Source: a virus
Strand: one strand, 5' to 3'
Length of the DNA: 64,000 nt
IMG/VR virus record: IMGVR_UViG_2791355197_000001
Coordinates: 23,154 to 87,153 of that record
Shown here: piece by piece, positions 23,351 to 46,300 of the stretch
Layout of the letters: the number at the start of each line of letters is the position of its first letter
Numbering within the stretch: the first letter of the stretch is position 1
Translations under genes and position numbers: made by a program
Notes under the pieces: generated by a model
What the model was told of the DNA's origin: nothing
Databases searched by the model: none
The model's input: the letters and a program-made list of their open reading frames with translations, nothing else

Positions 23351-23558
23351 GAGCGGCTGGCCGGCATGGCGCGCGCTGGCGTGTCGTCGGCGCTGGCGCT
23401 GGATTGGTCGGGGCGTTCGGCCTGGCTGATCAGTGTCAGCCGATATGCTGGCGCCCGTGGCGCCGCGCCGCGCGCGGCAACCGTCCGCGCTCTCTCTCGC
23501 CTGTCTGTCTAGGTGGTGACGTTCTGTTGACGTGGCAGGCGCGCGCCGATCCGCCGAG

Positions 23559-23732
23559 CTAGGCCGCACCATGCGGCGCGCTATCGCTGGGCATTGCGTC
23601 CCATGCGTCGGCGCTGGTGATGGTGCTGCGCTCAACCCGGATGACTGGCAGCACAATGACGGTTGCAGGCTGGCGCCGTTGTCGGCGGGCTCCGCGTGGC
23701 GCGCTGGGCGGTAGCTCGACTACCTCGCCCAT
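23559..23732 (-). CDS. Small hypothetical protein
   Basis: MGEVVELPPS...PATVIVLPVIRVER, 57 aa. Confidence 0.4.
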   Translation of the reverse strand: MGEVVELPPSAPRGARRQRRQPATVIVLPVIRVERSTITSADAWDAMPSDSAPHGAA

Positions 23733-23751
23733 GCCGTGCCCCTGACATGCG

Positions 23752-23785
23752 AAACCCGCCAAGGCGGTGCGACCTGGCGGGCTTT
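23752..23785. terminator. Hairpin, possible terminator
   Basis: AAACCCGCCA/TGGCGGGCTTT imperfect inverted repeat. Confidence 0.4.
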
Positions 23786-23960
23786 GGTTTGCAGCGACAA
23801 TGCGCCGAATGCCTGTTCTGAATCGCAAATTGAGTCGGCTGTCAAACCGCTGTCGCACGGGTTGGCAGTGGATGACGGCGCCGACGGCGCTTGATGCATC
23901 TCAATTCCGTGATAGTTGCGGACTGGATGACTGCGGCATAACTCAATCTTGAGGCGTCCA

Positions 23961-24272
23961 ATGACCGATACAAAGGCGAGCAAGGGCACGGCCAAACGCA
24001 AGCCAGCAAGCCGGGCCTTCTCTTCCGCTGATGCTTCACTGAGAATCAGCGCGGCTGAATTCCGGGCCTGGCAGGAAGGCGCCAGCCTCTCGAATGCCGC
24101 AGCTGCGCGCCTGCTCTACGTGTCTGAAAATACCTTGGCGCAGTACCGGGCCAATGGTGCGGGGCCGGATATCGCGCGCCAGATTTGGGCGATCATTGCC
24201 GGGATAAGGCCGGATACTGGACGGCAGCGCGCCGAATTGCTGGGCCGGATCAATGCCGCGCTAGGCGCCTAA
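23961..24272 (+). CDS. Cro/XRE-like HTH protein, first gene of the plus-strand array
   Basis: GAGG RBS before ATG 23961; ISAAEFRAWQEGASLSNAAAARLLYVSENTLAQY HTH pattern. Confidence 0.7.
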   Translation: MTDTKASKGTAKRKPASRAFSSADASLRISAAEFRAWQEGASLSNAAAARLLYVSENTLAQYRANGAGPDIARQIWAIIAGIRPDTGRQRAELLGRINAALGA

Positions 24273-24414
24273 TGCCTCAATATTGCGATACCAAGCCGGG
24301 CCATTCTAACTTTTTTTCGCAATTTTGCGTTTTGCCAGTTGACGGCCGCGCCGATATCTGCGCATGTACGCATCACCACGGCGCGATTGTGCGCAACTTC
24401 AAAGGCCCGGCGAA

Positions 24415-24588
24415 ATGATCCCCTTCATTTCCTTTTGTATCGCTAACCCGGCTTTCACTCTGGCCATGCTCGCAGCGATCTATACCGCTTGCTGGGCCGC
24501 CCTCGTCCCCTTCCTTTACGCGCCCGCCAAGTCTCGGCGCCTTTCGATCCGGCGCCGCGCGCGCCGCTCCAGCTTGTCGCGCCGCTGA
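24415..24588 (+). CDS. Small membrane protein (57 aa)
   Basis: Follows motif A copy 1; hydrophobic N-terminal half and Arg-rich tail. Confidence 0.55.
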   Translation: MIPFISFCIANPAFTLAMLAAIYTACWAALVPFLYAPAKSRRLSIRRRARRSSLSRR

Positions 24589-24639
24589 GGCGGTGCGGCT
24601 CAACCCGCGCAATCGTGCGCAACTGAAAAGGCAAACTCG

Positions 24640-24711
24640 ATGAAAGACTTTCTTCTCTTCCTCGCCGTGGCGTTCGTTGGAACGCTTGTAATCGTCGCCT
24701 GCTGTATCTGA
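24640..24711 (+). CDS. 23 aa hydrophobic peptide MKDFLLFLAVAFVGTLVIVACCI
   Basis: Follows motif A copy 2 and AAAAGG; single-TM composition; below the ORF-track cutoff. Confidence 0.55.
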   Translation: MKDFLLFLAVAFVGTLVIVACCI

Positions 24712-24803
24712 CGATTTGCAGCCTATGCCGTGCACGTCGCGGCATAAACGGCAAATCGCCGAACCCCGCGCAATTGTGCGCAACTCCAAAGGAAGTAACT
24801 GCA

Positions 24804-25682
24804 ATGACTGTCTACACCTCAACCGCCCGTTTCGATGGTACCGCCCGCGCTCTCACCGAGAACGAATTGCGCAAGCTGGCGCCGTCGGTTTTCGCGGTCG
24901 ACGCTCACCATTCACGTTCCGAACGCTTCCAGCCTATCCCGACGTTTGACGTGCTGCGCGCGCTGATGGCGGAAGGCTTCCAGCCCGTCGGCGCGAAACA
25001 GAGCGTTGCCCGGCTCGATGATCGCCGCGACTTCACCAAGCATCTGATCCGCCTGCGCCGTCTCGACAACGCCGCAACCTACACCGTCGGTGACACCGTC
25101 TGCGAAATTCTCCTCAAGAATGCCAATGACGGGACATCGGCCTATGACTTGATCGCCGGGCTTTTCCGTGTCCGTTGCCTCAACAGCCTTGTGGCGCAGG
25201 TCGGCACCGTCGAATCCGTCAAGGTCCGCCACACCGGCACCGCGCAGGATGTTTCGCACAAGGTGATTGAGGGCACCTATCGCGTGCTGGGCGAGGCCCA
25301 GAAGGCTCTATCGGCGCCGCAGGACTGGGCGCGCCTGGCACTCGACCGCGACGAAAAGCAGGTGCTGGCAGAAGCCGCGCACGTTCTGCGGTTCGGTGAT
25401 GCGGAAGGCGAAACGAATACGCCGATTCAGCCCGCGCAGTTGCTGCAGCCGCGTCGCCGCGACGACGTCGCCGCCGATCTCTGGACTACGTTCAATGTGG
25501 TTCAGGAAAACGTCATCCGTGGCGGGCTGTCAGCTCGCGGGCTCGATGCCAACGGCCGCCGCCGTCGCGTCACGACTCGCGCCGTTAACGGGATTGATCA
25601 AGACGTGAAACTGAACCGCGCCCTTTTCACGCTCGCGGCCAAAATGGCGGAGCTCAAAGGCGCGGCTCGCATCGCGGCCTAA
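24804..25682 (+). CDS. DUF932 family protein
   Basis: LAPSVFAVDAHHSRSERFQPIPT, FTKHLIRLR, LKNANDGTSAY, GLFRVRCLNSLV, DLWTTFNVVQENVIRGG. Confidence 0.9.
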   Translation: MTVYTSTARFDGTARALTENELRKLAPSVFAVDAHHSRSERFQPIPTFDVLRALMAEGFQPVGAKQSVARLDDRRDFTKHLIRLRRLDNAATYTVGDTVCEILLKNANDGTSAYDLIAGLFRVRCLNSLVAQVGTVESVKVRHTGTAQDVSHKVIEGTYRVLGEAQKALSAPQDWARLALDRDEKQVLAEAAHVLRFGDAEGETNTPIQPAQLLQPRRRDDVAADLWTTFNVVQENVIRGGLSARGLDANGRRRRVTTRAVNGIDQDVKLNRALFTLAAKMAELKGAARIAA

Positions 25683-25694
25683 GCGATTGCAGCC

Positions 25695-25719
25695 CATGCC
25701 CGGGCTTGTCCCGGGCATG
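25695..25719. repeat. Rhizobial REP-like palindrome CATGCCCGGG-CTTGT-CCCGGGCATG
   Basis: Perfect 10 bp stem; resembles the extragenic palindromes I recall from Bradyrhizobium-group genomes. Confidence 0.6.
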
Positions 25720-25776
25720 ATCGGCAACCGCCGGAAACCGCGCAATTGTGCGCAACTCGAAAAAGGGAAAATTGCC

Positions 25777-25881
25777 ATGAAGTATCGCCGCCACGATTCC
25801 GACCGCAAGCCAACCGACAAGCGGACTCGCCGCGCCGTGCTGAGCCAAGGCAAGCGCGCCTTTCTGAATTCCTGCCTCTGA
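25777..25881 (+). CDS. 34 aa basic peptide
   Basis: MKYRRHDSDRKPTDKRTRRAVLSQGKRAFLNSCL after motif A copy 4. Confidence 0.55.
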   Translation: MKYRRHDSDRKPTDKRTRRAVLSQGKRAFLNSCL

Positions 25882-25893
25882 GGAGCTAGGCCT

Positions 25894-26190
25894 ATGCCTG
25901 TTATCGAACTGGACGGCGCAGTCTATTTCAATTGCTGTACCGGCACCGCTGCGCCGGATTGGTCTCAATTCGTCGCGCTCGAAACCGGCGGCTGCACTAC
26001 GGAAACAGACGCGCGAACGGGCCAAGAATGGACCAACGGCGGAGAGCCGGACGACGTTGCCGAATTCTGGACTGTTTACGGCCGCCTGAAGGAAGGCGGT
26101 TGCGAGGCCATTACGGATTGCAAGACGCGGGCTGAGGTTGACGCGGTCGCGCTCCGCCTCTCCGAGCTATCCGGGCTTCCCGTTCATTGA
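25894..26190 (+). CDS. Acidic hypothetical protein (98 aa)
   Basis: GAGG RBS; EFWTVYGRLKEGGCEAITDC. Confidence 0.7.
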   Translation: MPVIELDGAVYFNCCTGTAAPDWSQFVALETGGCTTETDARTGQEWTNGGEPDDVAEFWTVYGRLKEGGCEAITDCKTRAEVDAVALRLSELSGLPVH

Positions 26191-26282
26191 CGTTGCGACA
26201 CTGCGCAGGCCTGGCCCTGCGCAGCACGGAACGCCAAAGCGGACTAACGCGCGATTGTGCGCAACTCAAAAGGACTCTGGAT

Positions 26283-26486
26283 ATGCGAGGGATTTGGACT
26301 CTCTACGTCGACCAATACGGCAACCGCTGGGGCGCCAGCACGGTTGCGGAGCTGCGCGGCAAGATCGGCGGCGGGCGCATCGCCAAGATGTATCGCGACA
26401 AGGCGAACGGCCGCGCCGTCCACTGCGGCTACATCATCGGTTCGCATTGGTGCACCGCTTATAGGCCTGTCGAGGTGCCCGCATGA
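26283..26486 (+). CDS. Hypothetical protein (67 aa)
   Basis: After motif A copy 5; MRGIWTLYVDQYGN...KMYRDK...HCGYIIG. Confidence 0.7.
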   Translation: MRGIWTLYVDQYGNRWGASTVAELRGKIGGGRIAKMYRDKANGRAVHCGYIIGSHWCTAYRPVEVPA

Positions 26487-26623
26487 TGGCGGAGACATTC
26501 ATTCCCGACAACATCCACGGGATTCCCGTTGGCTTCTACACGGACCGCGGAATCGCCGCGCTGCTGCGCAGTTTCTGCCGTTATCCCGCCGCGGTGCGGT
26601 TCATTGCGGACATGCTGGAATAG
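26483..26623 (+). CDS. Hypothetical protein (46 aa)
   Basis: ATGA-coupled; MMAETFIPDNIHGIPVGFY...FIADMLE. Confidence 0.55.
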   Translation: MMAETFIPDNIHGIPVGFYTDRGIAALLRSFCRYPAAVRFIADMLE

Positions 26624-26691
26624 CGCGGGCCTGGCCCGCCGACGTTTCGAACCCGCGCGATTGTGCGCAACTGAAAGAGGAGCAATTCAAC

Positions 26692-27255
26692 ATGGCTTGG
26701 CAGTTCTATGACTTTTTCGTCCATCCGACTATCCACGGGCCGATGCCGGAAAAGCGCTGGATTCCGGCCGCAAACGACAAGCCGCACAAGGTGCGGCGTA
26801 GCTCGAAAGTCACCCGCACCGCTGGCGGCGTGTCCGCTGACGATTTGAACGAACGCCACGCAATCGAGTACGCGCGTTGGCTGGCGCGGCGAGACAACGC
26901 CGATATCCCGTCCGGTACCTCGCCGCTAATCATCTGGGACGGCGTGACAGACGCCGCCGGAAAATGGCGCAAGCGCGCCCGTGCAGTCGAGTTTGGCACG
27001 CGGCGGACAACTCACACCGGCTACGGCCGAAACGCCTGCACAACGCACCACTGGGACGTCGCCGCCCGGATCGAAATTCCGCATTGGGATTGGCAGCCCG
27101 CCGAACCGGTTGAGGAGATCACTCCGGAAGCGGTACCGGTCCCGGTTGCGCCTTCCTTCAAGATCCCGGGCAGGATCCTGCGGACATCATGCCTTGTGCC
27201 AGTTTTGGCGCGTGTCCCGGTTGCGCCTTCCTGCGCAATTCGGCTTGCGGCTTGA
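26692..27255 (+). CDS. Hypothetical protein (187 aa)
   Basis: After motif A copy 6 and GAGGAG; MAWQFYDFF...SCAIRLAA. Confidence 0.7.
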   Translation: MAWQFYDFFVHPTIHGPMPEKRWIPAANDKPHKVRRSSKVTRTAGGVSADDLNERHAIEYARWLARRDNADIPSGTSPLIIWDGVTDAAGKWRKRARAVEFGTRRTTHTGYGRNACTTHHWDVAARIEIPHWDWQPAEPVEEITPEAVPVPVAPSFKIPGRILRTSCLVPVLARVPVAPSCAIRLAA

Positions 27256-27265
27256 GACGGCGCCG

Positions 27266-27625
27266 ATGAAACGCCAGCAAGCTCCGACGTTCAATCAACT
27301 TTGCGATGCATTGCAGTCGCGTCCTTCGCCGCGCTCGCAAGCCGAATGGCGCGAGGCCTCAACAGCCATGCGCCTGGCCCGGCGCCATCCCGGCCGCGTC
27401 GGCCGAACGATCTATATCGAATGCGGGACATTTGCGCGCCGCATTTACCTTGAGGCCACTTGGGGCGGGGTGAATTGCTACAACGGCCCGCACCCATTCG
27501 GCTACGTCAACATGATCGCTCACCACCGGTTCGTGCTCCGGCAGGGACTGCGGGAAGGCCGCGTTGCGGAAGCCCGACACTTTGCTGAGGCCTCGCGCCT
27601 CCGCGGGCCGGTGCCGCTGCCATGA
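27266..27625 (+). CDS. Hypothetical protein (119 aa)
   Basis: MKRQQAPTFNQL...; co-oriented and tightly packed. Confidence 0.55.
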   Translation: MKRQQAPTFNQLCDALQSRPSPRSQAEWREASTAMRLARRHPGRVGRTIYIECGTFARRIYLEATWGGVNCYNGPHPFGYVNMIAHHRFVLRQGLREGRVAEARHFAEASRLRGPVPLP

Positions 27626-27729
27626 CGCGAAAGCCTCAACCCCGCAAACAGCGCTGCCCCTACTGCAGGCAGTTGCGGCCGTTCTACATGATCGCCGCAC
27701 ACATCACCCAATGCGAGGCGCTTAGGTAG
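27622..27729 (+). CDS. 35 aa C2HC zinc-finger-like peptide
   Basis: MTRKPQPRKQRCPYCRQLRPFYMIAAHITQCEALR, ATGA-coupled. Confidence 0.5.
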   Translation: MTRKPQPRKQRCPYCRQLRPFYMIAAHITQCEALR

Positions 27730-27832
27730 CGTCCCGGCTACGACCGATTTCCACGGTGGATGACGTTCCCCCCCGGCGTCGGCCGATTCCAAATCCGCGC
27801 AATAGTGCGCAACTGAATAGGAGGTTTCCGAG

Positions 27833-29251
27833 ATGACTGACAGCAACACCAAGCGCGCATTTTCGCCTACCGGTAGCGAAATCGTCGCCACCGCCGACAT
27901 GATCCCCGGCAACGCGATGTGCTTTTTCTATGGCCGCAACGCCGATGGCACGCTCGAAATGGACCATTCGAGCGAGGGCACTCGCATGTGCTGGGATGGC
28001 GCCATCACCAAGACCGACGAGCGCGGCCAAACCCTATTCATCGCCCAGGACGGCACCGAGTGGCCCGAAGATTCGATCCACCTGGAAGGCGAGGAGCCGC
28101 GCCAGATGCCGGCCGCGCCGGATTCCCCGGTTGCGCCTCTTCTCTCCGCTCGCGAGCATGCAACCGTTTTGGCCGCTCTACGCCACTGGCAGCGCCATCA
28201 AGCTGATAGCGTCGGCGTGAGCCGCAACGTGATCCCGGAGGACGATATCGCCACTATCGGCGGCACCGTGGCGCCTATGCGCGCCGCTGAGGTCGATGCC
28301 CTTTGCATGCGGCTCAACTCCCCGGTTGCGCCTTCGCCCGATTGGCGCGAGATCGCGCGCGACCTGGCTGGCGCGCTCGACGCCTGCAGCCATCAGATTG
28401 GCCAGATGTCCGGCATGTTCGATGACGAGGACGGAACGATCGCGGCCGCCGTCTCGGACGCTGATGACGCGACGGAGTCCTATCGCAAGGCCATCGCTGG
28501 CGCACGGCCTTCGCGCTCGCCTGCGCTCGGAACGGTTTGGACCTGCACCACCGACGGCGACGAGTGCGCGCTCACCACAACCATTCACGCCACGGAAGCG
28601 GAGGCGCTGGAGCGTGTTCGCGACGACTTGCGGATGGATTGCAAGCCAAACCAATTGAAGCACCTTGGGGCGCTGCCCGCGGTTGATTTGCCGGAAGCGT
28701 GGACCGAAGCCAACGACGGCGCGTGCATCATCGAAAGCCACAAATTGCCGTGCCTCCCCGCTGCGCCCTCGCCCCTTGCCGTCGTGGTTGAACAGGGCCT
28801 TGTCGCGCGCGTCATGTCCGACAATCCCGAGCTGATCGGTGCGCCGGTGCTGCTGATCGATCATGACACCGAAGGCGCCGACGCCGACGATGTTTTCCAG
28901 ATCGCCGCGAATGACGGCAGGGCCGTGTCAATCGTCGGCCACATCTTCAACGTCGAGGCATCGGACGTGCACTTGCCAGCTGTCATGGCAACCATGCTGG
29001 AGCGCGGCCGCGACTTGCGGCAGCCACCTGGCGGATTTCCGGGTCAGGATGATCGGGCGCGCGCCGAAGGCTGGTGTCTGATTGAGGACGCTGGCGGGCT
29101 GCTGCGCATCGAGGCTGACAGCGACTCCGACATTTTCAGCCCGGGCGGCGTCAGCCACGACGACGAGGCCGAGGCCTTCGTCAAGGCGAAAGCGGCCGAA
29201 GGCAGCGAGTATCACATCGCGGCGCTTGCCCGGGTCGGCACCGCGCAATAG
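27833..29251 (+). CDS. Mosaic multi-domain hypothetical protein (472 aa)
   Basis: After motif A copy 7 and GGAGG; several short acidic modules separated by SPVAP/PAAPSP linkers. Confidence 0.75.
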   Translation: MTDSNTKRAFSPTGSEIVATADMIPGNAMCFFYGRNADGTLEMDHSSEGTRMCWDGAITKTDERGQTLFIAQDGTEWPEDSIHLEGEEPRQMPAAPDSPVAPLLSAREHATVLAALRHWQRHQADSVGVSRNVIPEDDIATIGGTVAPMRAAEVDALCMRLNSPVAPSPDWREIARDLAGALDACSHQIGQMSGMFDDEDGTIAAAVSDADDATESYRKAIAGARPSRSPALGTVWTCTTDGDECALTTTIHATEAEALERVRDDLRMDCKPNQLKHLGALPAVDLPEAWTEANDGACIIESHKLPCLPAAPSPLAVVVEQGLVARVMSDNPELIGAPVLLIDHDTEGADADDVFQIAANDGRAVSIVGHIFNVEASDVHLPAVMATMLERGRDLRQPPGGFPGQDDRARAEGWCLIEDAGGLLRIEADSDSDIFSPGGVSHDDEAEAFVKAKAAEGSEYHIAALARVGTAQ

Positions 29252-29339
29252 CCCCGGCTACGATCGATTTCCCTCACCCCCGAGCTACGACCGATTTCGC
29301 AAGGCGCAATCGTGCGCAACTGAAAAGGAGCAAGATCAC

Positions 29340-31496
29340 ATGAACCATACCGCCACCTATTCGCCCGATGACAACAAATTGCGCCTCTATCCCGCGCACC
29401 GCCTCGACGCCGAGGAGTACGCGCGCGTAAAGGCCGCCGGCTTCAAGTGGGCGCCGCGTCAAGAACTGTTCGTCAAGCCGACCTGGTCGCCGGAAGCCGA
29501 GGACCTGCTGATTGATCTCGCTGGCGAGATCGGCGACGAGGATACGAGCCTGGTGGATCGCGCCGAGCAGCGCGCCGACCGTTTCGAGGACTACAGCGAC
29601 AAGCGCCTCGCCGACGCCGAGCGCGCGCGGAAGACGGTCGATGAGATCGCAGAGCGCTTCTACATGGGTCAGCCGATCCTTGTGGGCCACCATTCGGAGA
29701 GGAGCGCGCGCAAAGACAAAGAGCGCATGGACAACGGCATGCGCAAAGCTCTCAAGCTCTGGGATACCTCGAACTATTGGACCGCGCGCGCGGCCGGCGC
29801 GATCGCTCACGCGAAATACAAAGAACTGCCGGCCGTCCGGCATCGCCGCATCAAGACCATCGAATCCGACAAGCGAAAGCTGGAAAAGTCGACGGCCGAG
29901 AATGAGCGTCAGCTCAAAGCTTGGCGGATTGTCGCCAGCATCACCGACGCCGAGAAGCAGCGCTCAACCGGTCTCACCGTGGCGAACGTCGGCGGCTATT
30001 GGTCAATGTCTTTCCCCCTGGCCGACTATCCGCGCGATCCGCCGGCCTCGCAGTACGAGGGCCCCATGGGCCTTTGGTCGGCTATCGATGGGAACGTCAT
30101 CACGGCCGCCACGGCAGCCGAGCTTGCGATTGCTGGCCTGGAACGCTCAGCCCCGCGCAAAGCCCGCTGGATTGCTCATTACGACAACCGCCTGGCCTAT
30201 GAACGCGCGATGCTGGCCGAGCAGATCGGAACGGAGGCGAGCGCCAACCCGCTGGCCGACCGCTTCGCTTTCGCTGTCGGCGGCCAAGTGCATGCTGGCC
30301 GATACGACGAATGGCTGACCGTGACGAAGGTCAACCGCGGCGCCAACGGTTCGGTTTCAAGCATCACCACCACCACGCCGGCCGGCTCGCGCAACAAGCT
30401 GGCGCGTTGGCGAGTCGAGAGCGTCCGCGACTATCAGGCGCCGAGCGAGGAGACCGTCGCCGCGGCGAAGGCGGCAAGCAAGCTCCCGCCGCTCTGCAAC
30501 TATCCCGGCGATGACTTCGCCCGCCTGACTCAGGATGAATACGACAAGGTTCCGAAGGACTATCGAGGTTATCGACCGCGTGCCGCTACCGAGACGGTCG
30601 GCGCGCACCGTACCCGCGTAGCCATCGGGGCCTATGCGTTCCGCGGCACCTGCGACCCCAACAAGCGACATTCCTACGCCGGGGTTTTCATCACGGATGC
30701 AAAGCGCGTCGACCCGCCCAAGGTCGTGCCAGCCCCCGAGCCGCAGGAGCCGGCCGAATTCGTCGCCGAGTATGTCGCGCCACCCGCTGTTGACCTTGAC
30801 GCGACGCTGGGAACAATCGCCGAGATCATGGCGGAGCCGTCGCCGGTTGAGTCCGTGCCGGAAGTCGTCCCGGTTGCGCCCGCGGAATCGCTGCGCCATC
30901 TCCCGGATACGGCCGATTTGCCGGCGCCGACAGCCGCGGACACGTTCGAGGCAATGCGGGCGATGCTCAGGGGTGGCGGCGTGCAGGTCGTCGTAGCCCC
31001 GCAACTCTTCGCGACCCCGCCCACCTTGGCGACCGATGTGATCGAGGCGGCAGACATTCAGCCCGGCCACCTGGTGCTGGAGCCGAACGCCGGCACGGGG
31101 GCCCTCGTCTATCCTGCACTGGAGCGCGGCGCGAGCGTTACCGCTGTTGAGATAAACGACGTCCTGGCGCGGACGCTCGGGCTCGATCGTCGGATATACC
31201 TGACGGTGCGACTCGATTTCCTCACTCTCGAACCGTCCGACGAGTGGATGTTTGACCGCGTCGTGATGAATCCCCCGTTCGAGCGCGGAGCAGACATCAA
31301 GCATATCGAGCACGCGCGGCGGTTTCTGAGACCTGGCGGCCGGCTGGTCGCGATCTGCGCCGACGGCCCGCGCCAACGGGCGAAGCTCGAACCGATCGCA
31401 GCGGAGTACCGCGCCTTGCCCGCCGGGTCCTTCAAGGCCGCCGGCACGATGGTCAACACGGCGTTGGTCGTCATCGACGGGCCGCCGCCTGGATAG
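29340..31496 (+). CDS. DUF3560-domain protein fused to an N6-adenine-type SAM methyltransferase
   Basis: N-terminal TATYSPDDNKLRLY, GQPILVGHHSER; C-terminal VLEPNAGTGAL (motif I) and VVMNPPF (motif IV). Confidence 0.88.
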   Translation: MNHTATYSPDDNKLRLYPAHRLDAEEYARVKAAGFKWAPRQELFVKPTWSPEAEDLLIDLAGEIGDEDTSLVDRAEQRADRFEDYSDKRLADAERARKTVDEIAERFYMGQPILVGHHSERSARKDKERMDNGMRKALKLWDTSNYWTARAAGAIAHAKYKELPAVRHRRIKTIESDKRKLEKSTAENERQLKAWRIVASITDAEKQRSTGLTVANVGGYWSMSFPLADYPRDPPASQYEGPMGLWSAIDGNVITAATAAELAIAGLERSAPRKARWIAHYDNRLAYERAMLAEQIGTEASANPLADRFAFAVGGQVHAGRYDEWLTVTKVNRGANGSVSSITTTTPAGSRNKLARWRVESVRDYQAPSEETVAAAKAASKLPPLCNYPGDDFARLTQDEYDKVPKDYRGYRPRAATETVGAHRTRVAIGAYAFRGTCDPNKRHSYAGVFITDAKRVDPPKVVPAPEPQEPAEFVAEYVAPPAVDLDATLGTIAEIMAEPSPVESVPEVVPVAPAESLRHLPDTADLPAPTAADTFEAMRAMLRGGGVQVVVAPQLFATPPTLATDVIEAADIQPGHLVLEPNAGTGALVYPALERGASVTAVEINDVLARTLGLDRRIYLTVRLDFLTLEPSDEWMFDRVVMNPPFERGADIKHIEHARRFLRPGGRLVAICADGPRQRAKLEPIAAEYRALPAGSFKAAGTMVNTALVVIDGPPPG

Positions 31497-31570
31497 CCCC
31501 CCGGCTGCGCCCTCTCGCTTACGACCGATTTCCCACCCCCCGGCTGCGACCGATTTGAGAGGAGACCCCC

Positions 31571-31810
31571 ATGACCGACTTCATCATCTGCAGAAACTGC
31601 GGCACCGAGGAGCACGCGCACCTGATCGACGCTAAGCCGGAGATCGGCGCCGATGAAAACAGCGACTTCACCCGCATGGAATGCATTGCCTGTTATGGGC
31701 CCGGCTGGCGACCGGCTGCATCAACGTCCGATTTCAAACTCTCGGTGGCGCCGCACTTAGCGCCGTACTACGCGGCCTATGCTGGGCGGATGGGCTGGAC
31801 ACCGCAGTAG
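31571..31810 (+). CDS. Small Cys-containing (zinc-ribbon-like) protein
   Basis: CRNC...CIAC; GAGAGGAG RBS after motif B. Confidence 0.65.
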   Translation: MTDFIICRNCGTEEHAHLIDAKPEIGADENSDFTRMECIACYGPGWRPAASTSDFKLSVAPHLAPYYAAYAGRMGWTPQ

Positions 31811-31885
31811 CCCGGCTGCGCCCCTGCGTACGACCGTTTTCCCGTCATCCCCTCGGCTACGGCCGATTCTGAAAGGAGAATTACC

Positions 31886-32257
31886 ATGCTCATCACCGTC
31901 AAGGCCGGCGCAAAAGTCGATGGTCACACGTTCAGCAAGGACTCGAACCAAAACTTCGGGCGAGAGAAAGCCGAAGGGCTTATCAAAGATGGCCGCGCGC
32001 AGCCCGTGGCGTTCGATGCTGAGGGTAACTGCCGGATCAATACCAGGTTTGATGCTTGGCTCAACGAGCACGGCGCCCTGGCTATCGGTTCCGGTGGCGA
32101 CGCCTTTCTGCATCTCTCATCAGAATTCCCGCTCGCGTACTTGCCCGAGGCCTTGCAAGCCTATCAAGCGGGGCATCACCACGGCATGGGTGACGGCCGC
32201 ATCAAGCTGCAGTCAGAGATGCGGGACCTGCTCTGCGTGGAGCCCGCTCGCACATGA
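31886..32257 (+). CDS. Hypothetical protein (123 aa)
   Basis: AAAGGAGA RBS after motif B. Confidence 0.7.
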   Translation: MLITVKAGAKVDGHTFSKDSNQNFGREKAEGLIKDGRAQPVAFDAEGNCRINTRFDAWLNEHGALAIGSGGDAFLHLSSEFPLAYLPEALQAYQAGHHHGMGDGRIKLQSEMRDLLCVEPART

Positions 32258-32529
32258 ACGCCGAGCAGATCATAGCTGCTGCCGGCCTCAAGATCGCGAC
32301 ACGCGCCGAGTTCGACGCCGAGTCCGACGTCCCCGCCGGGGTTCGCCTGTTGGCCGCGCGCATCTTCAAGCGTTGGGGCGGCGACTTCGTGGTGTACGAC
32401 CCGGCCGGCGGCGATGACGGCTGGCTGCTGATCGATGATGATCGCGACCAGATCATAGGCGAGACGGTCGAGCACCTCGGACGGCTCGAGCCTGAGCCGC
32501 CGGCGCCAGCGCAAGGCTCACTGTTCTGA
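32254..32529 (+). CDS. Acidic hypothetical protein (91 aa)
   Basis: ATGA-coupled; ends QGSLF. Confidence 0.65.
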   Translation: MNAEQIIAAAGLKIATRAEFDAESDVPAGVRLLAARIFKRWGGDFVVYDPAGGDDGWLLIDDDRDQIIGETVEHLGRLEPEPPAPAQGSLF

Positions 32530-32569
32530 TCCCCCGGATACGATCGATTTTGAACAATAGGAGAACGAT

Positions 32570-33136
32570 ATGACGCAATCCGACTACAAGCACGGCACCT
32601 GCGCATGGTGTGGCAACCAAGAAGAGGTTTTCCGCGACAACATGCTGTGCGACACCTGCGACAGCGATACGGTCTATTGCACTGTCTGCCGATCGCGCCA
32701 GCACCATGAATCGAAATGCCGCCACGTTTTCCAAAGCCACGGATGCGGCGAATGGCGCGGCGCCGGCTTCGATCCAATCGACAACGAGATGAAGGCACCT
32801 TTCCACCGCCTGTTGTCGGCCATGGGCGAAGACTTCGCGGTCGATCTGAAAACTGCGATCCGGTCAGGACGGTTCTTCACCTGGACAATAGCGCCGATGA
32901 TCGGCGGTGGCGGAATGCTGGAGCTCAACGGCATGCCGCAGCGCGACGGTCGTTCGATGCTATTCGAGTGGGGCGATGCCTTGATCAAGCTCGGCGAAGG
33001 ACGGCGCGCGGAGGAACTGCACGACGGCTATCGATGGATCGTGAGCCTATACAAGCGCAACACCACGAAGGCCAACCGGACCACCCTCGCCTGGATCGAT
33101 CAATGGTTGTGGCCTTTTGCCGGGGCCGCGTCATGA
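32570..33136 (+). CDS. Hypothetical protein with N-terminal Cys pairs
   Basis: CAWC, CDTC, CTVC, CRH; AGGAGA RBS after motif B. Confidence 0.7.
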   Translation: MTQSDYKHGTCAWCGNQEEVFRDNMLCDTCDSDTVYCTVCRSRQHHESKCRHVFQSHGCGEWRGAGFDPIDNEMKAPFHRLLSAMGEDFAVDLKTAIRSGRFFTWTIAPMIGGGGMLELNGMPQRDGRSMLFEWGDALIKLGEGRRAEELHDGYRWIVSLYKRNTTKANRTTLAWIDQWLWPFAGAAS

Positions 33137-33507
33137 GCCGAAGAGTCCGACGCGTTCCCGCAGACTGGCAGCACCCCCGCAACTCCGGCGGCCGCTATGT
33201 GCCGCTGGCTGAAGCCATTCCGGATGCGCCTGCGCCATACCCTGCGGCCAGCTATATGCCGGCTTGGCCAGCAGCGGAACGGACGCACTGGCAGTTGTAC
33301 GAGACCACCAGCGCCGGGACGCCGCTATCACCGCCCTGCCCGTCGCCCGAGGCCTTGGCCAAATGGCTGGCCGGCCACCATGTGGAGGCCGCACCGGGCT
33401 TCACGGGAACGGAGGCGCAATGGCTGGCCGCGATCAAGCGCGGCGGCGTCATCCCGCCGGTGATGACCGTCGGCAAGCGCCAGGTCAATCCGCTCGACTA
33501 CACCTGA
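33133..33507 (+). CDS. Conserved phage hypothetical protein
   Basis: RRVRRVPADWQHP...WQLYETTSAGTPLSP...PEALAKWL, a pattern I recognise from phage early proteins. Confidence 0.65.
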   Translation: MSRRVRRVPADWQHPRNSGGRYVPLAEAIPDAPAPYPAASYMPAWPAAERTHWQLYETTSAGTPLSPPCPSPEALAKWLAGHHVEAAPGFTGTEAQWLAAIKRGGVIPPVMTVGKRQVNPLDYT

Positions 33508-33601
33508 TCGGCCGGGACTCCCGGCTACGATCGATTTTGTGCTACCCCCTCGGCTACGGCCGATTCCGGGCGATTGTGCCCAACCGGAAAGGAACTCTCA
33601 G

Positions 33602-33925
33602 ATGTCCCCACCCCGATTTGTTCACCGCAAGATCTCGGCCGAGGACTTCAAGTCCGAACTGGCCAAACAAGGCATGTCAGTGCCGGCGTTCGCAAGGGTC
33701 TGGTGCCAGAACCTGTCGACGGTCACGAAATGGGCGAATGGCGGGAATGACATTCCGACCTGGGTGCCGATCGCGCTGACCATGATGACGCTACCGAACG
33801 CCCACGGGACCGCGCGCATGGCGGCCGCAGCGATGATCCAGCAGGACCGGCTGCATCCCGAACTCGGTGAATTCCCCTACCAGAAGCTGCGGCAGATGCC
33901 TGCGGACGACGAGATCGAGGAATAG
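33602..33925 (+). CDS. Cro/XRE-like HTH protein, last gene of the array
   Basis: ISAEDFKSELAKQGMSVPAFARVWCQNLSTVTKWANG; after motif A copy 9. Confidence 0.75.
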   Translation: MSPPRFVHRKISAEDFKSELAKQGMSVPAFARVWCQNLSTVTKWANGGNDIPTWVPIALTMMTLPNAHGTARMAAAAMIQQDRLHPELGEFPYQKLRQMPADDEIEE

Positions 33926-33932
33926 CCCCCGG

Positions 33933-34139
33933 CTACGATCGATTTTGCGGACCCCGCTTGCGCCTTGCTGCCTTGGCTGTCCGCTTTTTTGCCGGCGATC
34001 GCTTCACCGCTGGAGCCGCTGCCGGGGTCTTCGCTGCGTCCTCGGCATCGAGCTTGCGTTTCAGCGCTTGCATCTCCTCGTACCGGGCTTCCCGCTGCTG
34101 ACGCAGCCGGTCGGCGCGCGGTGATTGTTCGCGCCCCAT
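33933..34139 (-). CDS. Basic hypothetical protein (68 aa)
   Basis: Coupled to the 34139-34414 gene; Lys/Arg/Ala-rich. Confidence 0.5.
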   Translation of the reverse strand: MGREQSPRADRLRQQREARYEEMQALKRKLDAEDAAKTPAAAPAVKRSPAKKRTAKAARRKRGPQNRS

Positions 34140-34414
34140 TAGCCGGCCTCCGCCTCATCAACCGGCACCTCGCCGACCTCGAGCATGACCGGCGGATGGG
34201 TCCGCGAGATGACCCTAAGATGCACAGGGGCGCCGGCGTTCAGCCGAGCCAACTCCTCTGCCGTCGGCTTCCATGCTGACGTTAGGGACGGCATAGAATT
34301 GTTGATGACCTCGGCGCGGATCGGCAGCGCAAAGCACGTCCCGTCTCGCTCCTCGTCCCAATTCGGCGGGGCGCCCAATGTCATGTTGGCGCCGTCGATC
34401 TTCGCAATGTCCAT
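34139..34414 (-). CDS. Conserved phage hypothetical protein
   Basis: LGAPPNWDEERDGTCFALPIR...WKPTAEELARLNAG. Confidence 0.7.
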   Translation of the reverse strand: MDIAKIDGANMTLGAPPNWDEERDGTCFALPIRAEVINNSMPSLTSAWKPTAEELARLNAGAPVHLRVISRTHPPVMLEVGEVPVDEAEAG

Positions 34415-34423
34415 TGTACCCTC

Positions 34424-34768
34424 CTACGATCTCATGCGGTTTGCTCGAGCCTGGATGCCGGCCCGGGTGTTGTGCGAGTTGCAGGCGCAGCGGCCATTAC
34501 TGAGATCCAGCGCCAATTCTGGCCGATCGCGCACATCCTGAATGTGATCGGCGTACATCTGGTCTCCCTTCTCACGGCTGCGCTCGCAACGGTGGCCGTT
34601 CTCGACGTATTCGCAGCGCCAACCTGCTCGCTTCTTGACCTGCAACGCCCACTGCTGATGCTCAGCAGTCTGATAGTGAGGATCCGCGCGCTTCGGCGGA
34701 GGCTTGACCTTCCTGGTGTCCAACGTCGGGACGCGTGGGCTGAGAGATGGGATGCGCGACCGCCTCAT
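34424..34768 (-). CDS. HNH endonuclease (HK97 gp74-like packaging cofactor)
   Basis: WRCE...C...ADHIQD...NGRCACNSHN. Confidence 0.85.
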   Translation of the reverse strand: MRRSRIPSLSPRVPTLDTRKVKPPPKRADPHYQTAEHQQWALQVKKRAGWRCEYVENGHRCERSREKGDQMYADHIQDVRDRPELALDLSNGRCACNSHNTRAGIQARANRMRS

Positions 34769-38027: not shown

Positions 38028-39476
38028 TCAAAATGGTATCTCCTCTCGGCTAGCGTTTCCTCCAAACAGCATCCTCGGTCCGTTGAAGTCAATTTCCTTC
38101 CACTTGCTGCCGGTGCCGCTGCGGTTCTTGAAGACGGCAAAGGCCGCCTTCTCCTTCCAAATCTCCCATTCGCGAAGCCAGCGATCGCGCTGCTCCCGCC
38201 CTTTCGGGTTCTCTTCGCTGGCAGGCTCCGGCTCGTTGTCGCGGAGCCAAATCTTTGGAATGCTCAGGCCAATGATGATGTCGCTGTTTTCGACAATCAG
38301 GCCGCCGCCGTAGATGTCGCCGCTACCGAACTTCCAACTCGGCGCGCGCTGTCCCTCACGGGTCAACTGCGCGAGTTGCCAGACGACGCCGTCGAGCTCC
38401 TTGGCGAGATCTTTCGTATAGGCCGACGCGTATTCGACCGTCCGCACGACGTTCCAATGCTCCTGCTCCGGCTCGACCAGCTTCAGATGGTCGATGCAGA
38501 ACTGCTTCACGCCATACCGCCGCTTCGCCTTCCGGAACTCGTTGCCGATCTGCTTGATCGTCATCCGGCTGCGGTCTTGGACCCAGACCTTGATCGACTC
38601 GAGCTGTTCCTTCGCTCGCCGGATGTCGAGGAATTCCTTCTGGTTGAAGTCGCCGCTGATCTGCTTCTTGACCGAGACGCCGGACAGCGACGCGATGTCG
38701 CGATATGCGATCTGCTCCGCGGACATTTCGAGGCTCAGCGAAAAGCCCGGGAAAATGCTCGTCTCGTCCAACGATGGTCCCGCATTGTCGCGTAGGATCT
38801 GCGCCATCAAGGCCGATTTGCCGTGGCCCGATGGTGCCGCCAGAGTGACGGTCGTGCCGCCAACCATAGGCCCGAGAACCTGGTCCAACTCCGGGATCTT
38901 GGTGAGCACGCCGACGGCCCGCTTACCCTGATGCTCGTAGGCCTCACCCGCCTTGGCCATCGCACTGCCGGCAGCCTCACCGAGCGCAACGGCATGCCGC
39001 ACCCGGTCGTGGTCGTCGACGATGCGGAGCATGTCGTCGAGTTCCTGGCGCGTTTGATCGAACGTCTTGTCGGGCGCCGTGGCGATCTTCCCGAGTTGTA
39101 TGCGGGCGCGTTCCCGCCATGCCAAAATGACGTCGTCGACGAAGTCGAGCGCGCTGCTGACGTCCGCCGCCTTCTCGATCAGGATCTGAAGGACGGCCTC
39201 TGTATCGCCGACTCCCTCGAACTCGGTCGGGAGCTTGGCCTCGAGCAGCGACAGGGTCGGGCCGGCTCCATTGAGGCAGCAGTCCTCGACCGCGGCGAAG
39301 ATCAGACGGTGATGCGGCACCGTGAACTGGTCCGCCGACACGCGATCCGAGACAGCCCAGAAGGTCTCGGCCGACCCCAAAAGTTTTCCGATGATGGCTT
39401 CCTCAGCGCGAACATTTTGGGTCGGCCTATTGGGCGCGGCTCCTCGCGATGGACCAAGTGTTCCGACTTTAGCCAT
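38028..39476 (-). CDS. dnaB: DnaB-like replicative helicase
   Basis: APSGHGKS Walker A, SLEMSAEQ, IDHLKL, LAQLTRE, KNRSG. Confidence 0.88.
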   Translation of the reverse strand: MAKVGTLGPSRGAAPNRPTQNVRAEEAIIGKLLGSAETFWAVSDRVSADQFTVPHHRLIFAAVEDCCLNGAGPTLSLLEAKLPTEFEGVGDTEAVLQILIEKAADVSSALDFVDDVILAWRERARIQLGKIATAPDKTFDQTRQELDDMLRIVDDHDRVRHAVALGEAAGSAMAKAGEAYEHQGKRAVGVLTKIPELDQVLGPMVGGTTVTLAAPSGHGKSALMAQILRDNAGPSLDETSIFPGFSLSLEMSAEQIAYRDIASLSGVSVKKQISGDFNQKEFLDIRRAKEQLESIKVWVQDRSRMTIKQIGNEFRKAKRRYGVKQFCIDHLKLVEPEQEHWNVVRTVEYASAYTKDLAKELDGVVWQLAQLTREGQRAPSWKFGSGDIYGGGLIVENSDIIIGLSIPKIWLRDNEPEPASEENPKGREQRDRWLREWEIWKEKAAFAVFKNRSGTGSKWKEIDFNGPRMLFGGNASREEIPF

Positions 39477-40222
39477 CAGGCCGGCACCTCAAACTGAAAT
39501 TGATCCTGTGAAAGGCGTCGCTGCATCACCAAGACCATGTCCTGGTCTGCCTCAATCAGGATGCTGGAACAGCCGTACCGCGCAGCGGCAATGCCCGTTG
39601 TTCCGCTGCCAGCAAAGCAGTCCAACACAACGCCGGCCGGTGGACATGAGTAAAGAAGCAGCGGATCGACGATCCCGAGGGGCTTCTGGGTAGCGTGCAC
39701 CGCGCGCCGATGCTCGGATCGCACGTAAATCACGCTACGCATGAGACGTGGGCCTCCGTCAACCGTTCGATACTCCATCTCTTCGATGTCGCCCAAGTGT
39801 ATCGTACGGCCACGGCGCCTCACCGTCCGTGCGATTGCGTCGTTGGTCACCTGAGGAAGCTTGTAGACCTGATCCCATGCGGCATCGTCACGGTAGAACT
39901 GGACCGCGGACTCGTGGACACGACGAAACCGATCGGCATGGAAACCGCTTCCGTTCTGCTTTTCCCAGACGACGTCCTGAGCTGGGCGCCAACCTGCAAA
40001 TTCGGGCGCGCGATCGAGGAACATCTTGAGCGTTCCGAACACCCACATGCTACCGGTTTTTTTGAGCACTCGCCGTACACTGGCGGGCCAGCCAACCGGC
40101 CAGCGGTCCCATATTAGCTTCGTTGATCCATAGGGCGGATCGGTCAAGATCAGGTCAACCGACTCATCCTCGAGGCGGTTCACAACGTCACGGCAATCGC
40201 CGCAGATCACCTGCACGCTCAT
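39476..40222 (-). CDS. DNA methyltransferase, beta class (N4-C/N6-A)
   Basis: TDPPYG; HATQKP; VLDCFAGSGTT. Confidence 0.92.
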   Translation of the reverse strand: MSVQVICGDCRDVVNRLEDESVDLILTDPPYGSTKLIWDRWPVGWPASVRRVLKKTGSMWVFGTLKMFLDRAPEFAGWRPAQDVVWEKQNGSGFHADRFRRVHESAVQFYRDDAAWDQVYKLPQVTNDAIARTVRRRGRTIHLGDIEEMEYRTVDGGPRLMRSVIYVRSEHRRAVHATQKPLGIVDPLLLYSCPPAGVVLDCFAGSGTTGIAAARYGCSSILIEADQDMVLVMQRRLSQDQFQFEVPA

Positions 40223-42629: not shown

Positions 42630-42868
42630 GCCAAGCCTGCAGCCGCCTCGATAGCTTGTCGCTTCAAGTTCGCCCAAAGCCGGTTACAAGCCGTTCCGTC
42701 GTTCTCATGGTGATACCGGCGCCATGCGCGCTTGCGCCGCCCATAGACGCGGCGCCGATCGACGGGCAGCGCGCGCCAATGGTCCCCGCAAATCCATTCC
42801 GTCGGAGGAGCGAACCGACCTGTGGTGCGCCGGCAGAACGGCACGCAGCATCGCACCCGATCTGTCAC
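42626..42868 (-). CDS. Small Cys/His protein
   Basis: CCVPFCRRTT...ICGDHW. Confidence 0.65.
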   Translation of the reverse strand: MTDRVRCCVPFCRRTTGRFAPPTEWICGDHWRALPVDRRRVYGRRKRAWRRYHHENDGTACNRLWANLKRQAIEAAAGLA

Positions 42869-46297: not shown

Positions 46298-46300
46298 GTC

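What the first reader, a model, noticed from the sequence alone, without database searches (positions are those of the whole stretch)
27141..31822. Motif C (CCCGGTTGCGCC) sits inside genes at apparent domain junctions and matches intergenic joints
Seen: exact CCCGGTTGCGCC at 27141, 27216, 28126, 28321 and 30869, always read as PVAP. One-mismatch relatives CCCGGCTGCGCC follow stop codons at about 31499 and 31811, and CCCCGCTGCGCC occurs near 28756. In the 472 aa protein the copies separate compositionally distinct modules; in the DUF3560 protein the copy lies in the linker before the methyltransferase. Its 5' end matches that of motif B. I noticed no copy outside the array but could not run a search. 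Inference: these are recombination scars where cassettes were fused in frame, i.e. the array builds chimeric proteins.
Basis: partly seen in the sequence, partly recalled or inferred. Interest (0 to 1): 0.7.

Follow-up and report, generated by a model that had tools for sequence, protein, structure and literature searches.

The report
In-frame DNA joint between prophage protein modules
A 12-base DNA word in a Bradyrhizobium prophage sits exactly where small protein modules are joined into larger mosaic proteins and also directly after stop codons, and it is conserved as DNA rather than as protein, so it most likely marks the points where modules are swapped in frame.

Summary
CCCGGTTGCGCC occurs five times in 3.7 kb, on one strand only. 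That is 5 of 9 copies in the 8.4 Mb genome, and the other four match chance. Every copy reads P-V-A-P. Variants with C at the sixth base follow two stop codons.

The 472-aa protein consists of six modules. Each recurs elsewhere in other orders and as stand-alone 62-105 aa proteins. The motif copies lie on the module boundaries and on the only two low-confidence linkers of the AlphaFold model.

In about ten related Bradyrhizobium prophage arrays, 52 of 52 copies are on the coding strand:
- About 37 are in frame, always as P-x-A-P.
- About 8 lie 0-3 nt after a stop codon, at variable spacing.

Synonymous positions are fixed, while the middle base of codon 2 varies (V/A/D/G). The conservation therefore acts on the DNA, not on the protein. 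Homology breakpoints, an indel flanked by motif copies and module-wise changes of nearest relative all fall on the motif.

The "fusion scar" reading is only partly right. The DUF3560-methyltransferase fusion is ancient and widespread without the motif, although its linker is an insertion hotspot beside the motif.

Best reading (confidence 0.58): a lineage-specific joint that preserves the reading frame, related to the inter-cassette repeat B, at which modules are exchanged. The recombination mechanism is inferred, not shown.

The parts
26692..27255 (+). 187-aa gene. Its C-terminal tail cassette is bounded by two motif copies: ...PV[PVAP]SFKIPGRILRTSCLVPVLARV[PVAP]SCAIRLAA*
   Evidence: ORF and translation. 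The family alignment A2 keeps the tail down to 45% identity. The same tail is attached to an unrelated N-domain in L013 and L025.
27141..27152 (+). Motif C copy 1, exact and in frame (PVAP); left edge of the tail cassette
27216..27227 (+). Motif C copy 2, exact and in frame (PVAP), 11 codons before the stop
27833..29251 (+). 472-aa mosaic protein, M1-C-M2-C-M3-M4-C'-M5-M6. Module coordinates: M1 27833-28126, M2 28139-28321, M3 28334-28522, M4 28523-28756, M5 28769-29002, M6 29003-29248
   Evidence: HMMER against 1.8 billion representatives gave 637 hits, with modules in many orders and as stand-alone proteins. AF2 domains.
28126..28137 (+). Motif C copy 3, exact, residues 99-102, at the M1|M2 joint. 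A decayed copy, CCGGCCGCGCC (PAAP), lies 6 nt upstream, starting at 28109
   Evidence: pLDDT is below 50 at residues 97-100.
28321..28332 (+). Motif C copy 4, exact, residues 164-167, at the M2|M3 joint
   Evidence: DNA homology to L010, L016 and L017 starts at +0, +0 and +2 nt of this copy. pLDDT is below 50 at residues 166-168.
28756..28767 (+). Motif C variant CCCCGCTGCGCC (PAAP, residues 309-312) at the M4|M5 joint
   Evidence: In L021 the M4 module ends here with a stop plus a B-like repeat.
29340..31496 (+). DUF3560 + class I SAM-methyltransferase protein (718 aa)
   Evidence: Pfam and PHROGs. 2,757 homologues.
30869..30880 (+). Motif C copy 5, exact, residues 511-514, in the variable linker before the methyltransferase, next to an insertion hotspot
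31500..31511 (+). Post-stop copy CCCGGCTGCGCC, 3 nt after the TAG. It is the 5' part of a composite C+B spacer unit
   Evidence: At the orthologous gene ends the stop-to-motif spacing is 1, 2 or 3 nt.
31811..31822 (+). Post-stop copy CCCGGCTGCGCC, directly after the TAG of the 79-aa gene
33953..33964 (+). C-like CCCGCTTGCGCC inside the hairpin at the end of the array, followed by TTTTTT

Best explanation
Motif C has the extended consensus CCCCGG(T/C)TGCGCC(T)TC. It is a lineage-specific DNA-level joint element of the prophage's accessory-gene array. Its 5' half is that of the inter-cassette repeat B, and it marks the boundary of every exchangeable unit.

Where the unit is a separate gene, the motif lies untranslated 0-3 nt after the preceding stop codon. 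Where units are fused, it lies in frame, always in the phase that reads P-(V/A/D/G)-A-P(-S), and it forms the flexible linker between folded modules.

All in-frame copies share one phase. Recombination between any two of them, within one genome or between related prophages, therefore inserts, deletes or swaps a [module + C] unit without breaking the reading frame. This would generate the observed family of mosaic proteins, which resemble polyvalent proteins.

Shown: the motif is non-random, it coincides with module boundaries, it is conserved at DNA level, and the mosaic breakpoints and an indel fall on the motif.

Inferred: recombination at the motif caused these patterns. The enzyme is also inferred. 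Candidates are short-homology recombination by a phage or host recombinase, replication slippage, or a dedicated activity.
For: 1. Enrichment and strand. The window has 5 exact copies against 0.03 expected. The rest of the genome is at background. In ~10 related arrays, 52 of 52 copies with at most one mismatch are on the coding strand.

2. Module boundaries. HMMER local alignments of 637 homologues define modules at residues 8-98, 104-163, 166-225, 234-306, 311-386 and 395-470. Stand-alone proteins of 62-105 aa and many permuted fusions exist. The motif copies sit at residues 99-102, 164-167 and 309-312. The only AF2 segments with pLDDT below 50 are residues 97-100 and 166-168.

3. The same motif joins different neighbours. 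Before M3 the upstream partner is M2 in the window and L021, module Y in L010, L016 and L017, and a 15-aa leader in L024. The motif also precedes M2, M4, M5, M6, X and Z in relatives.

4. Breakpoints. DNA homology to L010, L016 and L017 starts at +0, +0 and +2 nt of the copy at 28321. L021 carries an extra 141-nt [X+C] unit between two copies where the window has one. Module X' occurs in three contexts.

5. Module-wise change of nearest relative. M1 is closest to L022 (64%). M2 is closest to L021 (81%). M3 is closest to L016 and L017 (83% and 81%) but only 58% identical to L021. M6 is closest to L016 (75%).

6. DNA-level conservation. Among 35 PxAP tetrapeptides in array proteins of 9 loci, Pro1 is CCG in 31 of 35. 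Val is GTT in 19 of 19. Ala is GCG in 34 of 35. Pro4 is the rare CCT in 21 of 35. The variable base is the non-synonymous middle base of codon 2. Genome-wide only 7.3% of PVAP use these codons.

7. Untranslated copies. Post-stop copies are conserved with 1, 2 or 3 nt of spacing at the orthologous ends of the DUF3560-methyltransferase gene, so they are not translated.

8. Co-occurrence with the repeat system. Forty-three more distant viral loci with homologues of the 187-aa protein's N-domain (L029-L071) have no copy of motif C on the gene strand and no copy of A or B, apart from one reverse-strand one-mismatch C hit in L051. C occurs only where B occurs, in most loci together with A.

9. Recombination genes. 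The prophage carries a PDDEXK/ExoVIII-like exonuclease, an AAA ATPase and a RuvC-like resolvase.
Against: - The shared identity is only 12-18 nt. This is below the minimal efficient pairing segment reported for Red-beta (23-27 bp) and RecA (31-34 bp) (PMC3945230), so ordinary homologous recombination at the motif alone would be inefficient.
- No annealase or site-specific recombinase was identified in the window.
- No pair of arrays was found that differs by one clean recent exchange, so the direction and mechanism of events are inferred from diverged sequences.
- In-frame copies mostly carry T at base 6, whereas all post-stop copies carry C. This suggests two partly separate sub-populations.
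- Some joints lack a recognisable copy, for example M3|M4 and M5|M6 in the window. Distant homologues fuse the same modules without the motif, so the motif is not required for fusion.
- Fixed synonymous sites could also reflect a sequence-specific DNA or RNA function unrelated to recombination.
Confidence: 0.58

Rival explanations
1. Passive fusion scars. Neighbouring cassettes were fused by loss of the stop codon and deletion of the spacer. The motif is simply what is left of the spacer and has no further role.
For: - The in-frame and post-stop copies are the same element, with 18-nt identity.
- Post-stop C is the first part of the spacer.
- In L021 the M4 module ends with a stop plus a repeat, whereas in the window M4 runs on through a C variant into M5. 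The sequences around the stop are alignable.
- At L022:10779 the post-stop copy is already in the PAAPS phase relative to the stop.
Against: - The motif is open in all three frames, yet all ~37 in-frame copies use one phase.
- Synonymous sites are fixed across arrays whose flanks are 45-80% identical.
- No remnants of motif B, motif A or the Shine-Dalgarno sequence are seen inside the fused genes.
- The DUF3560-methyltransferase fusion is older than the motif.
- The same motif also sits between an N-terminal leader and the first module in L024.
Confidence: 0.15
2. A sequence-specific DNA or RNA site. The motif would be a protein-binding site, a transcript-processing or anti-termination signal, or a terminator half-site that is needed at every cassette boundary. 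It persists inside fused genes because the signal is still required there.
For: - Conservation is at nucleotide level regardless of translation.
- The motif is strictly strand-specific.
- It co-occurs with repeats A and B.
- The last copy of the array is the 5' arm of a terminator-like hairpin followed by a T-run in L013 and L027.
- The spacers are C-rich and G-poor.
Against: - Internal copies have no complementary arm. No reverse-strand copy with at most one mismatch occurs in any C-bearing array.
- There is no Rfam match.
- A processing or termination signal inside an open reading frame would cut or truncate the fused protein's mRNA.
- The base that varies among copies is tolerated, and it changes between in-frame and post-stop copies.
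- This reading does not by itself explain why homology breakpoints and indels fall on the motif.
Confidence: 0.15
3. A protein-level linker or peptide signal. P-x-A-P-S would be a flexible Ala/Pro linker, or a cleavage or recognition site of a polyprotein, and the DNA identity would result from recent copying or gene conversion.
For: - The motif is always read in one phase.
- It lies in the least confident, non-regular segments between folded domains.
- The tail PVAPS...PVAPSCAIRLAA is kept in homologues down to 45% identity.
Against: - The amino acid at position 2 varies (V/A/D/G), while synonymous third positions and rare codons (GTT, CCT) are fixed.
- The motif is conserved untranslated after stop codons at three different spacings.
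- Distant homologues with the same fusions have no such peptide.
Confidence: 0.08

Closest known systems
Polyvalent proteins of phages and conjugative elements (Iyer et al. 2017, PMC5512222)
   Same: Proteins of mobile elements are built from several small domains that also occur alone and in many orders. The methyltransferase part of the neighbouring DUF3560 protein matches PHROG profiles of 1,259-3,925 residues. The paper itself raises cassette-like recombinational variability.
   Different: The proteins here are small (300-472 aa) and all their modules are of unknown function. They lie in an early or accessory array rather than next to virion genes. No conserved nucleotide joint between domains was found when that paper was searched for 'linker' and 'recombination'.
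Domain swapping at conserved short motifs in T-even tail-fibre genes ('His boxes'); recalled from my own knowledge and not checked here
   Same: Short conserved sequence motifs flank variable protein segments and are thought to serve as in-frame crossover points.
   Different: Those motifs are also functional protein motifs in one protein family. Here the conservation is at synonymous sites, and the same word also occurs untranslated after stop codons.
Cassette exchange in polymorphic toxin systems (CdiA VENN, Rhs PxxxxDPxGL); my own knowledge, plus a mention in PMC5512222
   Same: A conserved motif demarcates exchangeable modules, and homology at the motif allows replacement by other cassettes.
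   Different: There is one junction per protein and a toxin-immunity logic. Here there are several joints per protein, with no toxin or immunity signature.
Phage mosaicism by relaxed homologous recombination or boundary sequences (De Paepe et al. 2014, PMC3945230)
   Same: Mosaic breakpoints lie at short conserved sequences between related temperate phages.
   Different: The reported minimal pairing segments are 23-27 bp for Red-beta and 31-34 bp for RecA, whereas the joint here is 12-18 nt. The joints here lie inside genes and preserve the reading frame.
Integron gene cassettes and attC
   Same: An array of co-oriented small genes, each followed directly after its stop codon by a conserved site.
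   Different: There is no imperfect inverted-repeat site of 60-140 bp, and no reverse-strand partner copy occurs in any C-bearing array. No integrase was seen among the ORFs scanned next to the array. attC sites are not translated as protein linkers.
Exon shuffling with phase-compatible introns (analogy only)
   Same: Modules bounded by elements of one constant phase can be combined in any order without frameshifts.
   Different: There are no introns or splicing. The boundary element itself is translated.

Membership tests
Polyvalent (multi-module conflict) protein | Several domains in one polypeptide of a phage or plasmid, each also found alone and in other architectures | tested here: met
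   Six modules have stand-alone homologues and occur in permuted fusions among 637 proteins. The AF2 model shows four separate folded domains in residues 1-312.
Polyvalent (multi-module conflict) protein | Domains with recognisable anti-host or DNA-modifying activities | tested here: inconclusive
   The 472-aa protein has no Pfam, PHROG, PDB or BFVD assignment. The neighbouring protein has DUF3560 plus a methyltransferase.
Recombination boundary sequence (homology-driven mosaic joint) | A conserved short sequence located at the breakpoints of homology between related elements | tested here: met
   Breakpoints lie at +0, +0 and +2 nt of the copy at 28321. An indel is flanked by copies. The nearest relative changes module by module.
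Recombination boundary sequence (homology-driven mosaic joint) | Length of identity at least the minimal efficient pairing segment of known recombinases | tested here: not met
   The joint is 12-18 nt, against 23-27 bp for Red-beta and 31-34 bp for RecA (PMC3945230).
Recombination boundary sequence (homology-driven mosaic joint) | Crossovers observed to occur in the sequence | not testable with these tools
   This needs experimental or population data.
Integron cassette / attC | Imperfect inverted-repeat attC site with core sites R'' and R' | tested here: not met
   No inverted partner was found. No reverse-strand copy occurs in any C-bearing array. RNAfold of the spacers shows no attC-like hairpin.
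Integron cassette / attC | Adjacent IntI-type tyrosine recombinase | tested here: inconclusive
   None was found among the ORFs scanned with Pfam and PHROGs around the array. Not every ORF of the window was scanned.
Intrinsic terminator | GC-rich hairpin followed by a U-run | tested here: not met
   Internal and in-frame copies have no 3' arm. Only the terminal copies in L013 and L027 form such a hairpin.
Ala/Pro-rich protein linker maintained by selection on the protein | The amino-acid sequence is conserved while synonymous sites vary | tested here: not met
   The opposite pattern is seen. Synonymous sites are fixed and residue 2 varies. Untranslated copies are also conserved.
Known RNA family | Match to an Rfam covariance model | tested here: not met
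   There was no relevant match in 23500-34500 at E <= 1.

The most novel reading that the evidence does not exclude
The array is a dedicated cassette-shuffling system that preserves the reading frame. An element-encoded activity would recognise the C/B repeat family and move [module + C] units between positions and between prophages. The constant P-x-A-P phase would guarantee that every product is a readable chimeric protein. This would be a phage counterpart of exon shuffling or of integron cassettes, but acting inside genes to diversify early or anti-defence proteins.
Probability: 0.12. Interest if true: 0.85.

Novelty: new variant of a known kind. Interest (0 to 1): 0.6.

Why it matters
How the multi-domain "polyvalent" proteins of phages and plasmids are assembled and diversified is not known. 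Here a family of related prophages shows the same short nucleotide word at nearly every joint between shuffled modules. The word is kept at synonymous sites, is always in one phase, and is identical to a word that follows stop codons between separate cassettes.

If the word is the crossover point, it gives a concrete and testable mechanism for in-frame domain shuffling in phage accessory genes. It would also give a simple sequence signature for finding module boundaries in proteins of unknown function.

If instead it is a regulatory site that survives inside genes, that would be unusual in its own right.

Tried and rejected
- Phage database. blastn of 26000-32000 against 50,697 phage records found no match.
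- Related genomes. The 472-aa protein was found in 0 of 60 relatives and in 2 of 400 genomes of the genus, so the species-representative genomes gave few comparators. The comparators came from protein-collection look-ups and from viral contigs.
- Misaligned fragments. Alignment A6 of 128 single-module fragments was stacked wrongly by MAFFT and was not used. The collinear alignment A7 replaced it.
- Fold searches. Foldseek of the AF2 model against PDB and BFVD gave no functional match. It found only small uncharacterised phage proteins that match single modules.
- An apparent recent gene fusion. L015 has a 418-aa call where L013 has 340 + 65 aa. This proved to be a gene-calling difference on identical DNA.
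- Complementarity of C to motif A. The idea was that C (GTTGCGC) pairs with, or is a half-site of, motif A (GCGCAAC). The 7-mer occurs 3,192 times in the genome, so the match is not significant.
- Collection-wide scan. A scan of viral contigs for CCCGGYTGCGCCTTC gave mostly single, presumably chance hits. It did recover five more arrays with the same pattern.
- L023. A two-mismatch C-like word in another reading frame at the 3' end of an unrelated gene is suggestive, but it is within chance for that length.
- Annealase or site-specific recombinase. None could be named in the window.
- Two protein look-ups (P0122, P0193) returned gene lists without DNA.


Full report
CONTEXT

The window is a prophage in an 8.4 Mb genome of 75 contigs. 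The closest protein relatives are from Bradyrhizobium.
- Virion genes lie on the minus strand from 1.6 to 23.4 kb: tail proteins, tape measure, ClpP-type protease, portal and large terminase.
- Replication and modification genes lie on the minus strand from about 35 kb.
- Between them, from about 24 to 34 kb, is a plus-strand array of small genes. It includes DUF932 and DUF3560-methyltransferase genes and is punctuated by repeats.
- Repeats A (5 of 6 genome copies) and B (6 of 6) are essentially confined to this array.

OBSERVATION

The exact 12-mer lies at 27141, 27216, 28126, 28321 and 30869, all on the plus strand. Shuffles expect 0.03. The genome holds 9 copies, and a third-order Markov model expects 3.9. 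Five are in the array. The other four are scattered, with no motif A or B nearby.

All five array copies read x|CCG|GTT|GCG|CCx = PVAP. CCCGGCTGCGCC lies 3 nt and 0 nt after the stop codons at 31494-31496 and 31808-31810. On its own this variant is not enriched genome-wide (15 observed, 13.5 expected). Its position is what matters.

Codon usage does not explain the identity. Of 205 PVAP tetrapeptides in long ORFs elsewhere in the genome, 7.3% are written CCGGTTGCGCC, against 5 of 5 in the array.

THE 472-AA PROTEIN IS MODULAR, AND THE MOTIF LIES ON THE BOUNDARIES

A full HMMER search of 1.84 billion representatives gave 637 hits. Their local alignments define six modules, at about residues 8-98, 104-163, 166-225, 234-306, 311-386 and 395-470.
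- Each module has stand-alone homologues of 62-105 aa.
- The modules occur in many orders, for example M2-M1, M1-M2, M2-M5, M4...M3-M6 and M1-M2-M3-M4.
- The motif copies occupy residues 99-102 and 164-167, and the variant occupies 309-312.

An AlphaFold2 model of residues 1-312 was built on a collinear alignment (A7) and has a mean pLDDT of 80.5. It shows four folded domains. The only segments below pLDDT 50 are residues 97-100 and 166-168. No function could be assigned to any module.

RELATED ARRAYS

Loci carrying close homologues were fetched. They are L010-L012, L013-L015, L016-L020, L021, L022, L024, L025/L026, L027 and L028. In ten partly independent arrays, including the window, there are 52 copies with at most one mismatch. 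All are on the coding strand.
- About 37 are in frame, and every one is in the P-x-A-P phase.
- About 8 lie 0-3 nt after a stop codon.
- The rest sit at the array end or at the edges of loci.

Forty-three more distant viral loci also have homologues of the 187-aa protein's N-domain (L029-L071). They have no copy of C on the gene strand and no copy of A or B, apart from one reverse-strand one-mismatch C hit in L051. A collection-wide scan for the 15-mer recovered five further arrays with the same pattern: L133, L146, L147, L176 and L184.

THE MOTIF IS AT THE JOINTS OF THE MOSAICS

The module maps are as follows.
- Window: M1|C|M2|C|M3-M4|C'|M5-M6.
- L021: M1|C|X|C|M2|C|M3|(2-mismatch C)|M4.
- L016 and L025: M4'-Y|C|M3|C|M6.
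- L017: M4'-Y|(variant)|M3|C|Z.
- L013: N'|C|X'|C|M5...M6.
- L022: M1-W|C|X'|C|M5...M6.
- L024: leader|(variant)|M3|C|M4.

Module X' also occurs between M2 and M3 in P0131.

The tail cassette [PxAP]-about 25 aa-[PVAP]SCAIRxAA* is attached to two unrelated N-terminal domains.

DNA homology of the window to L010, L016 and L017 begins at +0, +0 and +2 nt of the copy at 28321. Relative to the window, L021 has one extra 141-nt [X+C] unit lying between two copies.

Each window module has a different nearest relative.
- M1 is closest to L022 (64%).
- M2 is closest to L021 (81%).
- M3 is closest to L016 and L017 (83% and 81%) but only 58% identical to L021.
- M6 is closest to L016 (75%).

Alignments anchored on the motif show it as an island of identity between unrelated or diverged flanks.

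CONSERVATION ACTS ON THE DNA

I picked PxAP tetrapeptides at the protein level in array proteins of nine loci (n = 35).
- Pro1 is CCG in 31 of 35.
- All 19 valines are GTT.
- Ala is GCG in 34 of 35.
- Pro4 is the rare CCT in 21 of 35.
- The variable base is the middle of codon 2, giving V, A, D or G.

So synonymous sites are fixed and a non-synonymous site varies. This is the reverse of what selection on a peptide would produce.

The post-stop copies at the orthologous ends of the DUF3560-methyltransferase gene are conserved with 1, 2 or 3 nt between stop and motif, so they are not translated.

The in-frame and post-stop copies are the same element. CCCCGGCTGCGCCTTCTC is shared by in-frame joints at L021:944 and L022:7426 and by the post-stop copy at L013:5883.

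Post-stop C is the 5' part of a composite unit, CCCCGGCTGCGCC-CTCYCGCTTACGACCGATTTCC. This is a motif B unit with an altered first half.

The last copy of the array forms the 5' arm of a terminator-like hairpin in L013 and L027. This may hint at the origin of the element. Internal copies have no such partner.

THE DUF3560-METHYLTRANSFERASE GENE

This architecture has more than 2,700 full-length homologues in many lineages, and the distant ones lack PVAP. The fusion was therefore not made in this array, and the motif is not its scar.

Close Bradyrhizobium homologues keep the exact 12-mer while the flanks diverge. The linker is an insertion hotspot beside the motif (also P0008 and P0009).
- L022 has about 130 extra residues directly after PxAP-A-E.
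- L025 has about 70 extra residues at the same place.
- L027 has a different insert directly before PDAP.

INTERPRETATION

The simplest account of all these features is that C is a boundary element of the array's cassettes that can be translated in one favourable phase. Exchanges between copies would then insert, delete and swap [module + C] units in frame.

The uniform phase and the fixed synonymous sites argue against passive scars. The untranslated copies argue against a purely protein-level role.

The weak point is the mechanism.
- 12-18 nt is below the minimal pairing segments reported for Red-beta and RecA (PMC3945230).
- No annealase or site-specific recombinase could be named. A PDDEXK/ExoVIII-like exonuclease, an AAA ATPase and a RuvC-like resolvase are present.
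- A sequence-specific DNA or RNA function at cassette boundaries remains possible. It would explain the conservation but not the breakpoints.

COMPARISON WITH KNOWN SYSTEMS

The proteins fit the concept of polyvalent proteins. The paper that described them already suggested cassette-like recombination (PMC5512222).

The joint resembles conserved crossover motifs in T-even tail fibres and in polymorphic toxins (from my own knowledge) and the boundary sequences of phage mosaics.

It differs in four ways. The conservation is at synonymous sites. There are several joints per protein. The phase is constant. The same word also occurs as untranslated spacer sequence.

It is not an integron: there is no attC-like inverted repeat, and no integrase was seen among the ORFs scanned.

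I rate it a new variant of a known kind, of moderate to good interest.

Noticed in passing
window 27216-27255; L010, L021, L024, L025, L027 and L146 tails: The 187-aa family ends in a conserved tail, ...PVAPSCAIR(L/V)AA-COOH. The C-terminal LAA/VAA resembles an ssrA-type ClpXP degron. The coding DNA of the tail (TGCGCAATTCGGCTTGCGGC) also looks like a degenerate motif A hairpin, 11 nt before the next start codon.
   Followed up: partly
window 56429-56488: Four to five tandem 11-nt repeats (GTCCCGGTGCT-like) lie inside the DnaD-like replication-initiator gene (55973-56857, minus strand). They are probably origin iterons.
   Followed up: no
window 39476-50319: The replication module carries an unusual load of DNA methyltransferases: two N6_N4_Mtase genes, one long C5-methylase protein (804 aa) and an MT-A70 gene. 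It also carries a DnaN beta-clamp homologue (46301-47710) and a GcrA-like regulator (50905-51609).
   Followed up: partly
window 59474-63999: A candidate recombination module: an AAA_23 ATPase (59474-61114), a PDDEXK/ExoVIII-like exonuclease (61511-62767) and an unassigned gene (62785 onward, phrog_3657) that might be the annealase.
   Followed up: partly
window 31494-31886; L013, L022, L025, L027 spacers: The inter-cassette spacers are C-rich and G-poor and carry one or two motif B units. Motif B persists in a relative of 55% GC (L023) that lacks motif C, so B is older or more widespread than C.
   Followed up: partly
L013:2640-2820 versus L015: One reading frame is open straight across a stop-B-SD-ATG spacer. 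As a result, a public gene call fuses two genes (418 aa) that are called separately (340 + 65 aa) on identical DNA elsewhere.
   Followed up: yes
window 33210-33240; L010:9654; L027:13865: A further C-like in-frame word (CCGGATGCGCC, PDAP) lies in a different array protein (RYIPLA..LPDAP..PYPAASYMPAW). Whether this is also a module joint was not examined.
   Followed up: no
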